A DNA stretch of 41,868 nucleotides from a virus (taxonomy: Duplodnaviria > Heunggongvirae > Uroviricota > Caudoviricetes). How positions within the stretch are numbered: the first letter of the stretch is position 1; the number at the start of each line of letters is the position of its first letter. Below the pieces are notes generated by a model that had not been told where the DNA came from, ran no database searches, and saw only the letters and a list, made by a program, of their open reading frames with translations. Positions 16,425-23,290 of this stretch are shown here, piece by piece. The stretch lies in the IMG/VR virus record IMGVR_UViG_2974481312_000001, positions 1-41,868 of that record; one strand, given 5' to 3'. Position numbers and translations under genes: made by a program.

Positions 16425-18758
16425 TCAATATCCTGGTTGGCCGCGCGTAGCGCGACGTGCCTTAGAAATTGCGCTGTTACTATCCTGTAGCGCAGAACTT
16501 ACGGTTTCACTGATTATAATACGTAATCGCCCTTCGTCGTCACGTTCTGTTGTCGCTGAATCAATTTTTCCGGTGGTGTTGTTCACAATGGTAACATTAT
16601 CTCCTCCGGATTTAGCGCCGCTCTCCCCCATAATCTGTCGCATCTGTTCCGCTGTGCGTACACGAGAGGCACTCGCGGGCATGATTACTTCCGGTTTACC
16701 GCGTTCAGCAATAGTGGACATTTGACCGGCGGCCAGGCTACCTCCCTGTTCACGCGCTGACCGTATTTTACCGATGTTAGCCAGACCAGCGGCGACAGCG
16801 GCAGCGGCAGCTACAGGAGCAAGGAACGGTCCCACGACAGGGATCGCGGCGGTAGACTTATACGCTTCAATAGCCGAGGTATAGGTAGCGATTGTTGCCT
16901 GCGCGATAGCAAAGGCTTTATATGCCGTTGATGCTTCCCCTAGCGCGGCCCCGATGTTACTAGCCATATTACCGAATGCGGCGCCTGTTGCCTTCGCTCG
17001 GTCTAATGCGTAAGTATCATTCATTGCGTTTAGGGTCTGCTGGTATGTTTCTTCCGCGATTAAACCCTGCGCATGAAAATCGTTAAGTTTTTGTAGCTTG
17101 ACCTCGTACTGCCGGTCTAATTCCGCAAATTCTCCTTCAGCAAGGGCCTGCATCTGAGCGACATACGCATCTGCGGAGAATTGCTTTTCCAGGCGCTCTT
17201 TCTCGCGTTTATCTAACTCAGCCTGGCGGGCCGTATCCGCCTCGAGCATAATCTGCGTCTTAGCGGTTTCGTATTGCTGGTCACTAAGGAGACGGTTGCT
17301 GTAGAACTCCTGTAGCTTAGTAAGTTGCTCTTCTTGGTTAGCTTGTATCTTCTGGAATACGTCGTCGTTAAGGTGGATTGACTGATAATAGAAATCCTCA
17401 GCGGCTTTCTTCTGACGTTCGAATGCGTCGACGGATTTCTTAGCAGCATTGTCCGCGGAATCGCCTACAGAACCGTTGTCTTTACCCGACACTTTAAACT
17501 TACCAAGACCCTCGGCCTTGGCCGCTTCTTTATCGATGTCGTAAGCCGCGCGCTTCAATGCGATAAGGTCTTCCTGAGCTTCTACCTGTTCACGGAAACT
17601 TTTACGTGTCAGGTCAGTCACAGCTCTTTGGGTATCCATAGCAAGCGCTAACTGGAAGTTAAGGTTCTTGGCCTCAGCTACCGACTCTCCCGGCGCCAAT
17701 GCGGCCTTTACAAGACGTCCTGCATCCTGAGCGCCTTTAACCATATCTTCAAAAAACCGCTCCATTGCCGTAAATTCCTGTGCAATGAAGTCCAGCGCAT
17801 CAGCCGCTGATTCGGCTATTGTTGACGCGGTCTCCTCACCACTTCCGGTAATGCTTTCACTAGTGTAAGTCCAGGCGGAGTTCAAAGCGTTTAACGCGTC
17901 TGCAACCGTCCCAAACGCCGCGTCGAATGAAGCCTCTATCGCACCCCCAACATCGGATGCCATGTCACCCCACATCTGCATCTCGGCTACGAACTCACCG
18001 GATGCGACCTGAGCGTTTATCTCCTGTATCAGGTCGTCAATATAACGTAAAGGTTCCGCCAGCGATCCTACATCCAGACCAGTAGCGAGAGTCATCTCTA
18101 ACTGGGACCATGAGTCCTCCGCACTAGCGATAGCCCCGTTCAGGGTATTAGCCTGGTCAGCCATCGCCCCGGCGAAGTTAACGTTGCCTATGTTGAGGAG
18201 ATATCGCTCAATATCGGCAGCGTTTTTCTTAACTACAGTAGTCGTCCCCTGGAAGGTAAATTCGATATCACTTTGGTTCTGCTTGGCTTTAATGCCGAAT
18301 TCTTTCAGACGTTCGAATTCAAAGGTGCTCGCATCCGCGACGGCCTCAATCATCTGGTTAAGGTCTTTACCCATAGCGGATGCAGTATTGCCGTAAGAGC
18401 GGAGCGCTTCTTCTGATGGAGTGAGGCCTAGAGCTACCAGTTTACGGAACCCTTCCACTGCTTGTTCAAGGCCGTAAGGTGTGTCACGGGCGAAGTCCTG
18501 TAAAATACTCAGGGCCTGTTTTGCGCCTTGAGTACTGCCTGTGAGCGTTTTCAGGCTAGCCGACATCTTATCCAGTTGCCGTTGCGACTCGACTAGTTCC
18601 TGCGCCGCCTTATAGGCCATAGCGGCTACAACGGCAGCCAGTCCGGTGACCGCGGCCCCCGCAACTTTTGCAGATTTAGAGAGGTTATCAAGACGGTCTG
18701 ATGTGGCCTTCGCGCCTTGTTCGGTTACCTTTACTACTAAGCTAGCTACATCAGCCAT
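16425..18758 (-). CDS. Tail tape measure protein
   Basis: About 780 aa, Ala/Gln/Glu-rich coiled-coil composition, located after the G/GT chaperone; track start is TTG at 18773, nearest ATG at 18758. Confidence 0.8.
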   Translation of the reverse strand: MADVASLVVKVTEQGAKATSDRLDNLSKSAKVAGAAVTGLAAVVAAMAYKAAQELVESQRQLDKMSASLKTLTGSTQGAKQALSILQDFARDTPYGLEQAVEGFRKLVALGLTPSEEALRSYGNTASAMGKDLNQMIEAVADASTFEFERLKEFGIKAKQNQSDIEFTFQGTTTVVKKNAADIERYLLNIGNVNFAGAMADQANTLNGAIASAEDSWSQLEMTLATGLDVGSLAEPLRYIDDLIQEINAQVASGEFVAEMQMWGDMASDVGGAIEASFDAAFGTVADALNALNSAWTYTSESITGSGEETASTIAESAADALDFIAQEFTAMERFFEDMVKGAQDAGRLVKAALAPGESVAEAKNLNFQLALAMDTQRAVTDLTRKSFREQVEAQEDLIALKRAAYDIDKEAAKAEGLGKFKVSGKDNGSVGDSADNAAKKSVDAFERQKKAAEDFYYQSIHLNDDVFQKIQANQEEQLTKLQEFYSNRLLSDQQYETAKTQIMLEADTARQAELDKREKERLEKQFSADAYVAQMQALAEGEFAELDRQYEVKLQKLNDFHAQGLIAEETYQQTLNAMNDTYALDRAKATGAAFGNMASNIGAALGEASTAYKAFAIAQATIATYTSAIEAYKSTAAIPVVGPFLAPVAAAAAVAAGLANIGKIRSAREQGGSLAAGQMSTIAERGKPEVIMPASASRVRTAEQMRQIMGESGAKSGGDNVTIVNNTTGKIDSATTERDDEGRLRIIISETVSSALQDSNSAISKARRATRGQPGY

Positions 18759-19110
18759 CGTTTCTACCCTCAAAAATGGCGTCTAAGCCCATGATAATTT
18801 CAGATTCAAACATCCCTATATTCTGACCTGAAATAGTGCTATACGCCACTAAATCTGACCAACTAAGTTGCTCTCTTGGGTATAGCTTTACGCCGTCGTC
18901 ATCAACGCGGCGGGTGAATTTAACATCACGATACTTCTCAAAAGTGGTGAGTAGTTCAGGGGGGCATTCAGGCCCGGCGTCCTGCGTTGTTTCTCCCGCG
19001 TCTTTTATTACCCCCATAGCGATAAGCGCGGCTTTGTGCCCATCGGCGATACTGTCAAACTTGCGCCTTTCGTGGCGGGTTATGAAGTTCCAACGGGCAA
19101 ACTGAAACAA
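18751..19110 (-). CDS. Tail assembly chaperone frameshift extension (gpT-like)
   Basis: ORF in the -1 frame relative to 19116..19532, open across the upstream stop; no convincing independent ATG (track start is TTG). Confidence 0.45.
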   Translation of the reverse strand: MFQFARWNFITRHERRKFDSIADGHKAALIAMGVIKDAGETTQDAGPECPPELLTTFEKYRDVKFTRRVDDDGVKLYPREQLSWSDLVAYSTISGQNIGMFESEIIMGLDAIFEGRNDG

Positions 19111-19115
19111 CGCGT

Positions 19116-19532
19116 CTACTTTTCCTGCAATTGACGCAACTGTTCGTGGTGGAATACGACTACATGTTCCGCCAGGCGCTTATATTGGGTGAGAAGAGTC
19201 TTAAGATTTTCCTTAGTGAACTCATCATCGAGACTCCAGCCATTCACCAATTCGAGAGCCAATTGTCGGTTTAGGTCTCCTGCCGCGTCTTCCATTTTTA
19301 AATTGTATTCTGAGAAGTCTTTTTGCTCTTCGCATTTATCCCGAAGCGGCTTTAATTTACCTACCGCCGCTCGGTACGCCAGGGTGAAGGCACGCATAGC
19401 TTTAACCGCGACATCGGCCTCCGGGGAGACAACGTTCAACCATTCTCCTGAATCTGTACCATCTTTTAAAGGGATCGGCATGCGCGCGCCTTTCTCGGCT
19501 TCGGCTTCGTAGTAAAAATCGCTAAGTTTCAT
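19116..19532 (-). CDS. Tail assembly chaperone (gpG-like)
   Basis: 138 aa acidic protein directly upstream of the tape measure gene; ends ..CAG GAA AAG TAG. Confidence 0.6.
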   Translation of the reverse strand: MKLSDFYYEAEAEKGARMPIPLKDGTDSGEWLNVVSPEADVAVKAMRAFTLAYRAAVGKLKPLRDKCEEQKDFSEYNLKMEDAAGDLNRQLALELVNGWSLDDEFTKENLKTLLTQYKRLAEHVVVFHHEQLRQLQEK

Positions 19533-19638
19533 AGTAATGCCCTTTGGTTAGTCGGTTACTGGTTGGTAGTTGCACCAGGCGGGAACCACCCGCTTTTCCG
19601 GTGCGACCGTAGACGCCAAATAAGAATAACAAAATAGC

Positions 19639-19667
19639 TTGCATAACCGTTAATAGTGTCCTATTAT
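19639..19667 (+). promoter_or_regulatory. Sigma70-like promoter TTGCAT-17-TATTAT with TAATAG-TGTC-CTATTAT element
   Basis: Upstream of the plus-strand island inside the minus-strand tail operon. Confidence 0.5.
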
Positions 19668-19701
19668 CTCTACGTCAACTAAACAATATGAGGTTAAGAA
19701 C

Positions 19702-19881
19702 ATGAGCGTTTTTATCGGTATTATCGCGTTTATCTATTTCATTCCGTTCCTGGTAGCCTTGCTACGTAATCATAAAGCGAAATTAGGAATATTCGTATGC
19801 AATCTTTTACTGGGGTGGATTCTTCTGCCGTGGGTTGGGGCTCTCATCTGGGCCTGTAACTCTAATGTTAATGGTAAATAA
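19702..19881 (+). CDS. Small membrane protein resembling superinfection-immunity (Imm-like) proteins
   Basis: 59 aa, GAGG RBS 8 nt upstream; IYFIPFLVALLRNHKAKLGIFVCNLLLGWILLPWVGALIWAC; below the track cut-off. Confidence 0.55.
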   Translation: MSVFIGIIAFIYFIPFLVALLRNHKAKLGIFVCNLLLGWILLPWVGALIWACNSNVNGK

Positions 19882-19932
19882 TCTGGCTTAATCAAAATTA
19901 CATTATTAGAATCAGGTTTGTCTTAAGCAATC

Positions 19933-19942
19933 GGGGGGGGGG
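19933..19942 (+). repeat. G10 homopolymer tract in the RBS region of the 19950 gene
   Basis: Ten consecutive G, ending 7 nt before ATG 19950. Confidence 0.9.
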
Positions 19943-19949
19943 AATAAGC

Positions 19950-21080
19950 ATGGTAACTCGTAAAATAACAGATGAACAGTTGCAGCAAGAGCTAAACGCT
20001 GGTCTCGGGCCGACCGAAATCGCAAAGAAGTACAACATGTCACGCCGTAATGTTCAGCTAAGGTCAGCTCGTCTGGCCAAGAAAGGTGTTGGTCACGGTC
20101 GCGACGTAAGCCATCTGGTGCCGGATGGGTATAAAATAAAGGGTACGTCGTCACTGGTGGATGAGTTCGGCAATACGAAACTTCAGTGGGTTAAGACTGA
20201 CGCCGACGCCGAGCGTCAGGTCGAGTTGATGCGAGCCGTAATAGATGGGATGAAGTCCGATATTACGCCAGTTTCTTCGGTCCCTCGGCCTAAAAAGCGA
20301 CTAAACGAAAAGTTGCTAAATCTTTACACGATTTCTGACTTCCATTTAGGTATGTTGGCCTGGGCGGATGAGAGTGGCGACGACTGGGATATGAAGATTG
20401 CAGAAGACCTGTTCTCGAGATGGTTCGACGCGGCGTTTCAGAAGGCGCCTGATGCCGGTGTGGGTGTTATTAACCTATTAGGGGACTTTGCGCATTTTGA
20501 CAGCCTTGATGCCGTTACGCCTGCCAGTGGCCATGTACTGGACGCGGACACGCGTTACCAGAAACTGGTGCGCTACATGATTCGTATGGTCAGGCGCGTG
20601 GTTAATATGGCGCTTGTTAAGCATAAAAATGTTCATCTCCTAATTGTGCAAGGAAACCATGACGAGTCAGGCATGATTTGGTTGGCTGAAATGTTTAACA
20701 CTCTTTACGATAATGAACCTCGTGTTTTTGTAGATACATCAGCTGATGTCTACAAGATGGTCCAACACGGTAAGACGACCCTTTTCTTTCACCATGGGCA
20801 TAAGGCGAGATTCGATGCTATCGAACCAGTTATGATCGCCAAGTTCCGTAAGGCGTTCGGAGAGAGCGTTTACAGTTACGCCCATGTGGGCCACCTTCAC
20901 CATCAGAAGATTGTGGAAAGCCGTAACATGATTGTTGAACAACACCGCACTCTCGCGGCGAAAGATGCTTACGCATCACGTGGTGGATGGATGTCAGGCC
21001 GCAGCGCGAATGTTATTACTTACAGTGCCGAATACGGCGAAGTCGCGCGTTTAACTATTTCACCGGAGATGCTGGGATGA
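19950..21080 (+). CDS. Calcineurin-like metallophosphoesterase with N-terminal HTH domain
   Basis: Motifs ISDFHLG, LGDFAHFD, QGNHDE, FFHHGH, VGHLHH; N-terminal HTH-like segment LGPTEIAKKYNMSRRNVQLRSARL. Confidence 0.8.
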   Translation: MVTRKITDEQLQQELNAGLGPTEIAKKYNMSRRNVQLRSARLAKKGVGHGRDVSHLVPDGYKIKGTSSLVDEFGNTKLQWVKTDADAERQVELMRAVIDGMKSDITPVSSVPRPKKRLNEKLLNLYTISDFHLGMLAWADESGDDWDMKIAEDLFSRWFDAAFQKAPDAGVGVINLLGDFAHFDSLDAVTPASGHVLDADTRYQKLVRYMIRMVRRVVNMALVKHKNVHLLIVQGNHDESGMIWLAEMFNTLYDNEPRVFVDTSADVYKMVQHGKTTLFFHHGHKARFDAIEPVMIAKFRKAFGESVYSYAHVGHLHHQKIVESRNMIVEQHRTLAAKDAYASRGGWMSGRSANVITYSAEYGEVARLTISPEMLG

Positions 21081-21307
21081 CTAACAAATACAATCGCACA
21101 ATGACAAATACTGACGGAGATAGCATTACCTGTGATGTGTACGACGTTCTGAGGGCATTTGATATCCGCGACCCGGCACTACAGCATGCGTTGAAGAAAC
21201 TGTTGTGTATGGGCCTGCGGGGGCACAAGGACACAGGAACCGACTTAGCAGAAGCAATTGAAAGTCTGGAGAAGTTACGGAAATACCGTAGTAATATTGA
21301 TGAGTGA
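21077..21307 (+). CDS. Hypothetical protein (76 aa)
   Basis: ATG overlapping the stop of the previous gene (ATGA); followed by a strong terminator. Confidence 0.5.
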   Translation: MTNKYNRTMTNTDGDSITCDVYDVLRAFDIRDPALQHALKKLLCMGLRGHKDTGTDLAEAIESLEKLRKYRSNIDE

Positions 21308-21310
21308 GAA

Positions 21311-21339
21311 AAAGGCCCCTTTCGGGGCCTTTTTTTTTA
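21311..21339 (+). terminator. Rho-independent terminator
   Basis: Hairpin AGGCCCC-TTTC-GGGGCCT followed by T9. Confidence 0.85.
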
Positions 21340-21420
21340 TCGTCACGATAAAGAATCTGATTTGAGCGATAAGAATGTTCGAAGTTAAATATATCTACGC
21401 CAACAAGAGGAGATGAAACC

Positions 21421-22092
21421 ATGAACGAATTAATGAATGTTAGTGAAGCACAAACAATGTCCAGCCGTGAGATTGCGGAACTGACGGGGAAAGAACACGA
21501 CAACGTACGACGCGATATATTAAAAATGGCACAGGAACTTTCCCTCAATTTTGAGGAAAAGGTTTTGCCTTCAAACGGTGGCAGACCAAGTAAGGTATTT
21601 CTCTTAGACAAAGAAAATACATTAATCCTGGTTTCAGGGTACAGCATCAAAATGCGCGCTGCCATCATCCGCCGTTGGCAGGAACTGGAGTCACAAGCGA
21701 GCAAACCATCCTTACCGGTGCCCAAGACAATGGGGGAGGCTTTAAGGTTGGCTGCGGACTTGTGGGAGGAGAAAGAACGCCTTGCGCTTGAGAACAAGGA
21801 AATGGCGCCAAAAGCTGATGTCTACGACCGCATCATCGACAGAAATAACTTGTACAACGCGACGCAGGTTGCCCAGAAGTTCGGCCAATCTGCCGTGTGG
21901 ATGAATAAACAACTTGAACAATTTGGCGTATACAATCGCTCCGTAAAACGCGGTCGTGTCTTCCAGCAATGGTTCATCGATAAGGGTTACGGCATTATGC
22001 GTGAAACAGAAACCGGGCATTCACAGGCCATGTTCTTTGCAGAAGGTGAGATGTGGATTATTGGTAAGTTAACAGAAGAAGGTTTGATTTAA
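21421..22092 (+). CDS. Phage antirepressor (Rha-like N-terminal domain plus KilA-C/ANT C-terminal domain)
   Basis: N-terminal MSSREIAELTGKEHDNVRRDI; C-terminal DVYDRIIDRNNLYNATQVAQKFG..VYNR; AAGAGGAG RBS. Confidence 0.75.
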   Translation: MNELMNVSEAQTMSSREIAELTGKEHDNVRRDILKMAQELSLNFEEKVLPSNGGRPSKVFLLDKENTLILVSGYSIKMRAAIIRRWQELESQASKPSLPVPKTMGEALRLAADLWEEKERLALENKEMAPKADVYDRIIDRNNLYNATQVAQKFGQSAVWMNKQLEQFGVYNRSVKRGRVFQQWFIDKGYGIMRETETGHSQAMFFAEGEMWIIGKLTEEGLI

Positions 22093-22096
22093 AACT

Positions 22097-22120
22097 AAGG
22101 CCCCTTTCGGGGCCTTTTTC
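22097..22120 (+). terminator. Rho-independent terminator, probably bidirectional
   Basis: Hairpin AAGGCCCC-TTTC-GGGGCCTT followed by T5; abuts the stop of the minus-strand gene 22121..23290. Confidence 0.75.
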
Positions 22121-23290
22121 TTAGGCGTACTTAATGCGCTGTATAACAATTGAAGACTGGAACTGGTTGCCGGTTGCCTGCCCCTCAAGAGAAAGGGTAA
22201 TAGACTCAGGGCCGCCGATTTCCGGAGTTGCGGACGTCAGTGAAGCACGTTTTAGTGTAAAGCTCATTGCACCATCCGGGCCATCAAGAACCGAAGATAC
22301 CTCCATTTCTGTTTCATCCAGGAATTTATTTAACAGCGTCATGTCGTACAGCTTACCCGCCAGCGAGAAGGTGTTAGCCGCGCGGCCACGTTCGACAAAT
22401 GCCACGCTGTTATTTCCCAACTCGAACTGTGCAGATGCCCCGTTGTCGTTAGTAATGGTGAACGTGTCAATAAGTTTAAGCGGCGCGGCTCCGTCATAAG
22501 CAGATACATCAACCGATGCAAACGGACGGGCTCTAAAATTGGTCGTGAAATCTGAACCGCTCGGCGGTGCTTGTAAGATTTCCTGATTCAAGCCGATGAA
22601 CGGGAAAGAACCGGTGACCATTGCGTTAACGGCTTGTTCGATGGTGAACCCGGTAAATTCAACACCACGAGTTATGATGTACGAATCAGGATTTCCGCAT
22701 TTACCTTTCAACCATGTCAGGATTGAATAGGTTTTACACAAGTTACCGGTTTCAAGTTTATCTGCGATACGCAAATCGGCTTGGGCGTCTGCCTGGGCGG
22801 TTAGGGTGTGCTGGATGCCCGCTCCGGTTATAGCTGTAGCTGTGACAGCCGTGACTATGAACGCTTTGTCGTTATTTCCGGATAAACCGTCGAACTGGAC
22901 AAGGTCGCCAACTTCAACACCGTCTGTTTCAAAACTACCGTTTGTGCGTGTGAAAGTTTTCGCCACCGGGTCTACGGTAACGCTGATTCCCGATTTAGTG
23001 GAACCCGCTACCCAGGAACTGGTCATTGCACCGGCTAACAGCTCGTCCTGGCTTGTCGCGCTTAGTTCGATAGCGTATTCACCAGTTACCTGGCGGTTAC
23101 CGGTGCGGATAGATGATGTTTCGCGGCTGCCGTCCAGCTCGTTAGAGATGAGGGCGTCGCGGGTTACGGCGGGAATACCCCCAGTGTTGCGCAGTGGTTG
23201 CCATACCGGGTTAGCGGGTGTTACCCCCGGCGTCGTCTCAAGAACGTAAAACTGCGCGGTCATCGCGCCCTTATATGGTTGTAACGCCAT
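22121..23290 (-). CDS. Major tail protein (putative)
   Basis: 389 aa ORF after the connector genes and upstream of the tail chaperone; assigned by position only. Confidence 0.45.
   Translation of the reverse strand: MALQPYKGAMTAQFYVLETTPGVTPANPVWQPLRNTGGIPAVTRDALISNELDGSRETSSIRTGNRQVTGEYAIELSATSQDELLAGAMTSSWVAGSTKSGISVTVDPVAKTFTRTNGSFETDGVEVGDLVQFDGLSGNNDKAFIVTAVTATAITGAGIQHTLTAQADAQADLRIADKLETGNLCKTYSILTWLKGKCGNPDSYIITRGVEFTGFTIEQAVNAMVTGSFPFIGLNQEILQAPPSGSDFTTNFRARPFASVDVSAYDGAAPLKLIDTFTITNDNGASAQFELGNNSVAFVERGRAANTFSLAGKLYDMTLLNKFLDETEMEVSSVLDGPDGAMSFTLKRASLTSATPEIGGPESITLSLEGQATGNQFQSSIVIQRIKYA

What the first reader, a model, noticed from the sequence alone, without database searches (positions are those of the whole stretch)
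19933..19942. G10 homopolymer tract at the ribosome-binding region of the phosphoesterase gene
Ten consecutive G end 7 nt before ATG 19950 and serve as the only Shine-Dalgarno-like sequence. Homopolymer tracts of this length are prone to slipped-strand length changes, which would alter SD strength and spacing and could switch the gene's translation on and off at the population level; it is also a classic sequencing-error hotspot.
Basis: seen in the sequence. Interest (0 to 1): 0.5.

Follow-up and report, generated by a model that had tools for sequence, protein, structure and literature searches.

The report
Variable poly-G ribosome-binding site in phage
The ten-G run is real and is the ribosome-binding site of a phage phosphoesterase gene; its length drifts (G5, G8, G9, G10) between otherwise identical phages, but modelling predicts these changes barely affect translation, so it looks like a slippery repeat, not a demonstrated on/off switch.

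Summary
In detail: G10 lies at 19933-19942, 7 nt before ATG 19950, and is the only homopolymer of 10 or more in the window. The window is Salmonella Jerseyvirus f18SE.

The same site is AGGA in most of about 330 related GenBank records. Natural intermediates exist (GGGA, G4, G5), and G8-G10 occurs in only 9 records.

Seven phages share a 699-nt flank with zero substitutions yet carry G8, G9 or G10; a G5 phage differs at one site. Among near-clonal siblings, every genome-wide indel lies in a long homopolymer. So the tract is hypervariable. Heritable slippage is the more likely cause: assemblies at 2874x to 7590x coverage disagree, and the two G8 genomes share a SNP.

The exact count of 10 here rests on an 8x Illumina assembly.

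The proposed on/off switch is not supported. The run grows away from a fixed 3' anchor, so spacing stays at 6-7 nt. Predicted anti-SD pairing saturates (-11.2 kcal/mol at G8, -11.5 at G9-G14), and start-site accessibility does not change.

Verdict: an ordinary Shine-Dalgarno that became a drifting homopolymer. At most it is a weak rheostat. Interest is low to moderate.

The parts
19933..19942 (+). G10 homopolymer, the Shine-Dalgarno element of the phosphoesterase gene; length-polymorphic among relatives (AGGA, GGGA, G4, G5, G8, G9, G10)
   Evidence: Sequence; alignment A1; tract lengths in GenBank, IMG/VR and Logan relatives; anti-SD duplex energies
19943..19949 (+). Spacer AATAAGC between the SD and the start codon. 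It is invariant in all G-run alleles; the AGGA and GGGA alleles read A-ATAAGC, giving the same total distance
19950..21080 (+). 376-aa protein with an HTH-like N-terminus and a calcineurin-type metallophosphoesterase domain (phrog_704, 'DNA repair exonuclease'); motifs DxH 130, GDxxxxD 178, GNHD 235, GHxH 314
   Evidence: relatives annotate the same ATG as the start
19702..19881 (+). Upstream co-oriented gene for a 59-aa superinfection-immunity protein (PF14373). It ends 68 nt before the phosphoesterase ATG, and no promoter-like or terminator-like site lies between them
18632..20299 (.). 1.67-kb block identical to SalM-TTS6 and NBSal006 (genomes otherwise about 8% divergent); the G-tract length is the only variable position inside it

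Best explanation
The G run is the Shine-Dalgarno sequence of the phosphoesterase gene. It evolved from an ordinary AGGA: two A-to-G substitutions (AGGA-A to GGGA-A to GGGG-A) created a short G run, which then expanded by replication slippage to G5 and G8-G10. At that length it is a mutable simple-sequence repeat whose length drifts between isolates much faster than the flanking sequence accumulates substitutions. The run grows away from a fixed 3' anchor 7 nt before the AUG, and pairing with the 16S anti-SD tail saturates at about 9 G. Length changes in the observed upper range are therefore nearly neutral for translation: a strong SD stays a strong SD. Shown here: the tract, its position, its polymorphism, the evolutionary series and the identical flanks. 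Inferred: slippage as the mechanism, and near-neutrality, which comes from thermodynamic modelling only. The exact count of 10 in this record is uncertain because of the 8x assembly.
For: Series of natural alleles at the homologous site: AGGA (PVP-SE2 and most relatives), GGGA (IMG_641201315, CKT1), G4 (Logan SRR6919260), G5 (14 Canadian phages), G8 (f2SE, fSE4S, SS3e), G9 (fSE1C, f3SE, NBSal006) and G10 (window, SalM-TTS6). In GenBank, 330 records match the region. Exactly 9 fall in the 80-90% identity band, and these are the G8-G10 records. Every sampled record at 93% identity or above has no indel. Over 699 flanking columns there are 0 substitutions among the window, SalM-TTS6, NBSal006, f3SE, f2SE, fSE4S and fSE1C, and 1 in SF4, yet the tract is G10, G10, G9, G9, G8, G8, G9 and G5. 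The identical block spans 18632-20299. Near-clonal siblings differ from the window by 5-16 SNPs, and all their indels are in homopolymers: G10, T9 and C6. Independent high-coverage Illumina assemblies give different lengths: fSE4S G8 at 7590x, fSE1C G9 at 2874x, NBSal006 G9 at 3915x. f2SE and fSE4S share both G8 and SNP 14523. Anti-SD pairing in kcal/mol: AGGA -4.3, G4 -5.7, G5 -8.6, G8 -11.2, G9-G14 -11.5, with spacing 6-7 nt throughout and opening energy 6.2-6.9 for all lengths. The SD ties for sixth strongest of 52 genes, so it is strong but not exceptional.
Against: There are no read-level or single-plaque data, so true within-population heterogeneity and the slippage rate were not measured. 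The translation effect is a thermodynamic prediction, not a measurement. Very long or strong SDs and extra distal pairing registers can lower initiation in ways the model does not capture. The long tract also persists in a separately diverged allele (SS3e: 28 of 699 differences, G8), which could hint at maintenance by selection rather than pure drift.
Confidence: 0.62

Rival explanations
1. Translational phase variation: slippage in the G run changes SD strength or spacing and switches or strongly grades phosphoesterase translation, creating ON and OFF subpopulations as a bet-hedging device.
For: The tract is long enough to slip and is polymorphic on an identical haplotype. It is the only SD. 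Phage homopolymers acting as contingency loci have recently been reported, but by frameshift inside ORFs (PMC12633550). A long tract recurs in two diverged alleles.
Against: The 3' anchor and spacer are invariant, spacing stays 6-7 nt, and pairing differs by 0.3 kcal/mol or less between G8 and G14. Accessibility is unchanged. All natural lengths from G4 to G10 retain an SD stronger than the common AGGA allele, so no OFF allele is seen. An OFF state would need the run to collapse to 3 G or fewer, which is many slippage steps away.
Confidence: 0.12
2. Sequencing or assembly artefact: the true tract length is the same in these phages, and the G8/G9/G10 differences (and T9/T8, C6/C7) are homopolymer miscalls.
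For: Every indel separating the near-clonal genomes lies in one of the longest homopolymers. f18SE was assembled at only 8x coverage. The window alone has T9 where four siblings have T8. Illumina reads lose accuracy in and after long G runs (my own knowledge).
Against: Assemblies at 2874x, 3915x and 7590x from two laboratories disagree (G9, G9, G8). The two G8 genomes share a SNP that the G9 and G10 genomes lack. Fourteen Canadian phages all read G5. SS3e, an early deposit from a different laboratory in South Korea, reads G8. A long tract is seen by at least four independent sources (Chile, Pakistan, South Korea and the NBSal006 group), so its existence is not an artefact; only the exact count may be.
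Confidence: 0.13
3. Selected SD strengthening: expansion from AGGA to a G run was favoured because it raises phosphoesterase translation. The exact length above about G7 is irrelevant and simply drifts.
For: Predicted pairing improves from -4.3 (AGGA) to -8.6 (G5) and -11.5 (G9 or longer). With the RBS-Calculator scaling (beta about 0.45 per kcal/mol, my own knowledge) this corresponds to roughly 25-fold for AGGA versus G9 or longer, and about 4-fold for G5 versus G9 or longer. The block carrying the tract is identical in genomes about 8% divergent, which suggests recent horizontal spread.
Against: Only 9 of 330 records carry G8 or longer, so there is no sign of a general advantage. The spread of the 1.67-kb block may be driven by other genes in it. 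There are no expression data.
Confidence: 0.1
4. RepG-like target: the G run is bound by a C/U-rich small RNA or a protein, so tract length tunes post-transcriptional regulation gradually, as in the Helicobacter pylori tlpB leader.
For: It is a variable G-repeat in an mRNA leader, the same architecture as tlpB (PMC8295292). The phage contains many C/U-rich stretches.
Against: None of the C/U-rich stretches stands out as a non-coding RNA. Unlike the tlpB repeat, this run itself is the SD. No candidate regulator was identified.
Confidence: 0.03

Closest known systems
Simple-sequence-repeat contingency loci, including the phage homopolymer loci reported for T2/T4 (Gomez, Barrick and Waters 2025 preprint, PMC12633550)
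   Same: It is a homopolymer in a lytic phage genome whose length differs between very close relatives, consistent with polymerase slippage. At 10 G it is longer than the 6-bp threshold used in that study.
   Different: Those loci act by reversible frameshift inside ORFs. This tract is intergenic, lies in the SD, and is not predicted to switch expression. Within-population heterogeneity and reversibility were not measured here.
[quoted passage not shown]
   Same: It is a length-variable G homopolymer in a 5' leader close to the translation start, and it could in principle grade rather than switch expression.
   Different: The tlpB repeat works through a dedicated C/U-rich sRNA. No such partner was found here, and here the repeat is itself the ribosome-binding site.
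Poly-G or poly-C tracts in promoters or leaders of bacterial phase-variable genes, e.g. Moraxella catarrhalis uspA1, Neisseria porA/opc, Treponema pallidum tpr genes (recalled from my own knowledge, not checked here)
   Same: They are G/C homopolymers of about 8-12 nt upstream of a gene, with one-base length changes between isolates.
   Different: Those tracts alter promoter geometry or transcription. No promoter-like hexamers flank this tract, and it lies 7 nt from the AUG inside an operon transcript.
Canonical Shine-Dalgarno sequence (AGGA/GGAGG) of the same gene in other Jerseyviruses
   Same: It has the same position, the same spacer and the same start codon, and it pairs with the CCUCC core of the 16S 3' tail (through G-C and G-U pairs).
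   Different: It is composed only of G, about 2.5 times longer, predicted to bind about 7 kcal/mol more strongly, and mutable in length.

Membership tests
Shine-Dalgarno ribosome-binding site | Complementarity to the 3' tail of 16S rRNA | tested here: met
   The duplex with GAUCACCUCCUUA is -11.5 kcal/mol for G10, against a median of -6.65 over 52 phage genes
Shine-Dalgarno ribosome-binding site | Spacing of about 5-10 nt to the start codon | tested here: met
   The 3'-most paired base is 6-7 nt from the AUG for every run length from G4 to G14
Shine-Dalgarno ribosome-binding site | Positional homology with the SD of orthologous genes | tested here: met
   It aligns with AGGA or GGGA in PVP-SE2, the SETP3-like IMG genome and most of 330 GenBank records
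SSR contingency (phase-variable) locus | Repeat tract long enough for slippage | tested here: met
   G10 is the longest homopolymer in the genome
SSR contingency (phase-variable) locus | Tract length polymorphism among otherwise near-identical strains | tested here: met
   G5, G8, G9 and G10 occur on a flank with 0-1 substitutions in 699 nt. The only indels among near-clonal genomes are in homopolymers. Some contribution from miscalls cannot be excluded (8x coverage)
SSR contingency (phase-variable) locus | High-frequency, reversible length change within a clonal population | not testable with these tools
   This needs read-level data or single-plaque amplicon sequencing; only consensus assemblies were available
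SSR contingency (phase-variable) locus | Length change switches expression of the linked gene ON/OFF | tested here: not met
   Tested in silico only: pairing energy, spacing and accessibility are essentially constant for G8-G14, and all natural alleles keep an SD. No experimental expression data exist
RepG-type sRNA-targeted G-repeat leader | Cognate C/U-rich regulatory RNA that pairs with the repeat | tested here: inconclusive
   The window has many C/U-rich stretches, but none stands out as a non-coding RNA. Host sRNAs were not examined
Calcineurin-like metallophosphoesterase (the downstream gene) | Conserved metal-binding motifs DxH, GDxxD, GNH[DE], GHxH and a family profile match | tested here: met
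   Motifs at residues 130, 178, 235 and 314. Match to phrog_704 at E=1e-168 over the full length. Pfam PF00149 at 21.4 bits is just under the 21.5 cutoff

The most novel reading that the evidence does not exclude
The G run is a genuine phage contingency locus acting at the level of translation initiation. Slippage continually generates sub-populations with different phosphoesterase/nuclease dosage, through over-strong SD pairing, competing distal registers or an unidentified RNA or protein binder. This heterogeneity would be maintained because the optimal dose differs between Salmonella hosts or defence systems. It would be the first SD-located repeat rheostat described in a phage.
Probability: 0.1. 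Interest if true: 0.55.

Novelty: new member of a known kind. Interest (0 to 1): 0.28.

Why it matters
There are two practical points. First, the homopolymer counts in the f18SE record (G10 here, T9 at 21330) should not be trusted to the base, and whole-genome comparisons of these therapeutic-candidate phages will show spurious or unstable indels at this site. Second, the locus is a clean natural example of how an ordinary Shine-Dalgarno (AGGA) can turn into a self-expanding homopolymer, with every intermediate still present in nature. It also gives a rough internal clock: several length changes have occurred on a 1.67-kb block that has no substitutions. If tract length did affect translation, this would extend the newly proposed idea of phage contingency loci from frameshifts to translation initiation. 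The present evidence argues against a switch.

Tried and rejected
1. Promoter-spacer model (as in porA or fim). No sigma-70-like hexamer pair and no terminator-like site were found in 19450-20050 on either strand, so I rejected it.

2. mRNA-structure switch. I folded leader variants from G3 to G14. The MFE architecture and the energy to open -20..+13 are essentially constant at 6.2-6.9 kcal/mol, so I rejected it.

3. Coding on the minus strand. ORFs 19898..20038 and 19912..20154 cross the tract, but G8/G9/G10 variants would frameshift them, so they cannot be conserved genes.

4. Wider sampling with a flank pattern. IMG/VR gave 8 loci, one of them G8 (this is SS3e). The metagenome scan gave only 2 unrelated chance matches. 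The genome scan gave one phage-like contig with AGGA.

5. Exact-protein look-up of the phosphoesterase in public assemblies found nothing. The sie protein look-up gave 10 places, all with G5 or shorter tracts, which added the G4 intermediate but no new long tracts.

6. Sequence search of the phosphoesterase against PDB chains gave only insignificant HTH hits, and NCBIfam gave nothing meaningful.

7. The first NJ tree over the full 1.78-kb region was distorted by partial sequences. I redid it on the shared 699 gap-free columns.

8. I did not run structure prediction or large protein searches, because the identity of the downstream protein does not decide the question.

Full report
**1. What is there**

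The sequence reads CAATC-G10-AATAAGC-ATG. The ten G occupy 19933-19942 and the ATG is at 19950. That ATG opens a 376-aa ORF, 19950..21080 on the + strand.

The run is the only homopolymer of 10 or more in the 41,868-bp window. The next longest are T9 at 21330-21338 and a few 7-mers. Composition alone predicts about 0.02-0.03 G runs of this length.

**2. Context**

The window is a Salmonella siphophage of the genus Jerseyvirus, species f18SE. Its closest records are fSE1C, f2SE, f3SE and fSE4S. Its length equals the published f18SE genome (KR270151, 41,868 bp), which was assembled from Illumina MiSeq data at only 8x coverage.

The tract lies in a 68-nt intergenic gap. Upstream is a 59-aa superinfection-immunity gene (19702..19881, PF14373). 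Downstream is the 376-aa gene.

The 376-aa protein matches phrog_704, "DNA repair exonuclease", over its full length at E=1e-168. It scores 21.4 bits on Pfam Metallophos, just under the 21.5 cutoff. It carries the DxH, GDxxxxD, GNHD and GHxH metal-binding motifs behind an HTH-like N-terminus. "Phosphoesterase" is therefore a fair name.

No promoter-like or terminator-like site flanks the tract. The two genes are probably co-transcribed, and the run sits in the mRNA.

**3. The tract is the gene's Shine-Dalgarno, derived from an ordinary one**

In relatives the homologous position reads AGGA (PVP-SE2, six IMG/VR genomes and several Logan/NCBI contigs). It reads GGGA in the SETP3-like IMG genome and in CKT1, G4 in a Logan contig from SRR6919260, and G5 in fourteen Canadian SF/SS/SI phages. 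It reads G8 in f2SE, fSE4S and SS3e, G9 in fSE1C, f3SE and NBSal006, and G10 in the window and SalM-TTS6.

The 3' flank ATAAGC-ATG never changes. The series AGGAA, GGGAA, GGGGA, G5A and then G8-10A shows two A-to-G substitutions creating a short run that then expanded.

The long form is rare. Of 330 GenBank records that match the region, exactly nine fall in the identity band that corresponds to G8-G10. Every sampled record at 93% identity or above has no indel.

**4. The length is hypervariable**

Over 699 gap-free columns around the masked tract, the window, SalM-TTS6, NBSal006, f3SE, f2SE, fSE4S and fSE1C have zero substitutions. SF4 has one. Their tracts are G10, G10, G9, G9, G8, G8, G9 and G5.

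The identical block runs from 18632 to 20299. SalM-TTS6 and NBSal006 are otherwise about 8% divergent from the window.

Genome-wide, f3SE, f2SE and fSE4S differ from the window by 5-16 SNPs. Every indel lies in a long homopolymer: this G10, the T9 at 21330, and a C6 at 39500.

SS3e carries G8 on a separately diverged allele (28 of 699 differences, with the nearest at 19871 and 19955). The GGGA and AGGA alleles are closer to the window than SS3e is. Long tracts have therefore either arisen more than once or been gained and lost.

**5. Real slippage or miscalls?**

The homopolymer-only indel pattern fits both explanations, and the 8x coverage makes the window's own counts (G10, T9) unreliable to the base.

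However, high-coverage assemblies disagree with each other. fSE4S reads G8 at 7590x, fSE1C reads G9 at 2874x, and NBSal006 reads G9 at 3915x. The two G8 genomes, f2SE and fSE4S, share SNP 14523, which the G9 and G10 genomes lack. Fourteen related Canadian phages uniformly read G5. At least four independent sources (Chile, Pakistan, South Korea and the NBSal006 group) report G8 or longer.

I conclude that a long, length-polymorphic tract is real. Part of the one-base scatter, especially in this record, may still be technical.

**6. Does length matter for translation?**

I modelled pairing with the 16S 3' tail, GAUCACCUCCUUA. The energies are -4.3 kcal/mol for AGGA, -5.7 for G4, -8.6 for G5, -9.7 for G6, -10.5 for G7, -11.2 for G8, and -11.5 for every length from G9 to G14.

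The 3'-most paired base is always 6-7 nt from the AUG.

Leader folds and the cost of opening -20..+13 are the same for all lengths, at 6.2-6.9 kcal/mol.

The G8 version of this SD ties for sixth strongest of 52 genes (-11.2 against a median of -6.65), so it is strong but not unique.

Steps among G8-G11 are thus predicted to be nearly neutral. The real jump in predicted strength is between AGGA and G5 or longer. With the RBS-Calculator scaling (my own knowledge, beta about 0.45 per kcal/mol) that is roughly 25-fold for AGGA versus G9 or longer, about 4-fold for G5 versus G9 or longer, and about 1.1-fold for G8 versus G9 or longer.

No natural allele lacks an SD, so no OFF state is observed. These are predictions. 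Competition from distal registers, or stalling on an over-strong SD, could give a modest graded effect that the model does not capture.

**7. Comparison with known systems**

As a mutable homopolymer in a lytic phage, the tract fits the general class of simple-sequence-repeat loci. These were recently proposed as phage contingency loci in T2, T4 and others. Those act by frameshifts inside ORFs, and that study mentions only a few intergenic tracts and no SD-based mechanism.

The nearest architectural analogue is the variable G-repeat in the H. pylori tlpB leader. That system needs the sRNA RepG, and I found no convincing C/U-rich partner here.

Promoter-located poly-G or poly-C switches, recalled from my own knowledge, differ because this tract has no flanking promoter elements.

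The tract meets the tested criteria for an SD. For a contingency locus it meets the criteria for a slippage-prone, polymorphic repeat. It fails, in silico, the defining criterion that length changes switch expression. Within-population reversibility could not be tested.

**8. Verdict**

The sequencing-hotspot caveat is apt for this 8x record. The on/off translation switch is not supported.

The best explanation, at confidence about 0.6, is an ordinary SD that became a drifting homopolymer and is functionally buffered by its fixed 3' anchor. Interest is low to moderate. It is a tidy evolutionary example and an annotation caveat, with a small chance (about 0.1) of being a genuine translational rheostat in a phage.

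Noticed in passing
window 21330-21338: A T9 run, the second-longest homopolymer, is T8 in f3SE, f2SE, fSE4S and fSE1C. It corresponds to the T-run of a bidirectional rho-independent terminator annotated in PVP-SE2. The window alone has T9, possibly an error of the 8x assembly.
   Followed up: partly
window 39500-39505: A C6 run reads C7 in f3SE. This is the third and last indel site among the near-clonal genomes, again in a homopolymer.
   Followed up: no
window 18632-20299: A 1.67-kb block covers the end of the tape-measure region, the tail assembly chaperone genes, sie and the first third of the phosphoesterase gene. It is base-for-base identical in SalM-TTS6 (Pakistan) and NBSal006, whose genomes are otherwise about 8% divergent. 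Dense third-codon-position divergence resumes at about 20300, which suggests recent mosaic exchange.
   Followed up: partly
window 1657, 10623, 10968, 22798: These four SNPs separate the window from all three near-clonal siblings (f2SE, f3SE, fSE4S) at once. They are either private f18SE alleles or consensus errors of the 8x assembly.
   Followed up: no
L023 (NZ_JACVEL010000023.1, Taishania pollutisoli scaffold, 13,130 bp): A contig 92-94% identical to window 15449-22900 (a Jersey-like Salmonella phage, AGGA allele) sits in a genome assembly of a Bacteroidota species. It is probably contamination rather than a prophage.
   Followed up: partly
window 19702-22092: A + strand cassette (sie, phosphoesterase, a 76-aa ORF at 21077-21307, and a Rha/ANT antirepressor-like gene) is embedded between - strand tail genes. 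Late antisense read-through across the cassette would carry a C10 complementary to the tract.
   Followed up: no
window 37081-37365: fSE4S differs from the window by a cluster of 11 SNPs within about 285 nt, and by only 5 elsewhere in the genome. This is a local recombination patch or a hypervariable spot.
   Followed up: no
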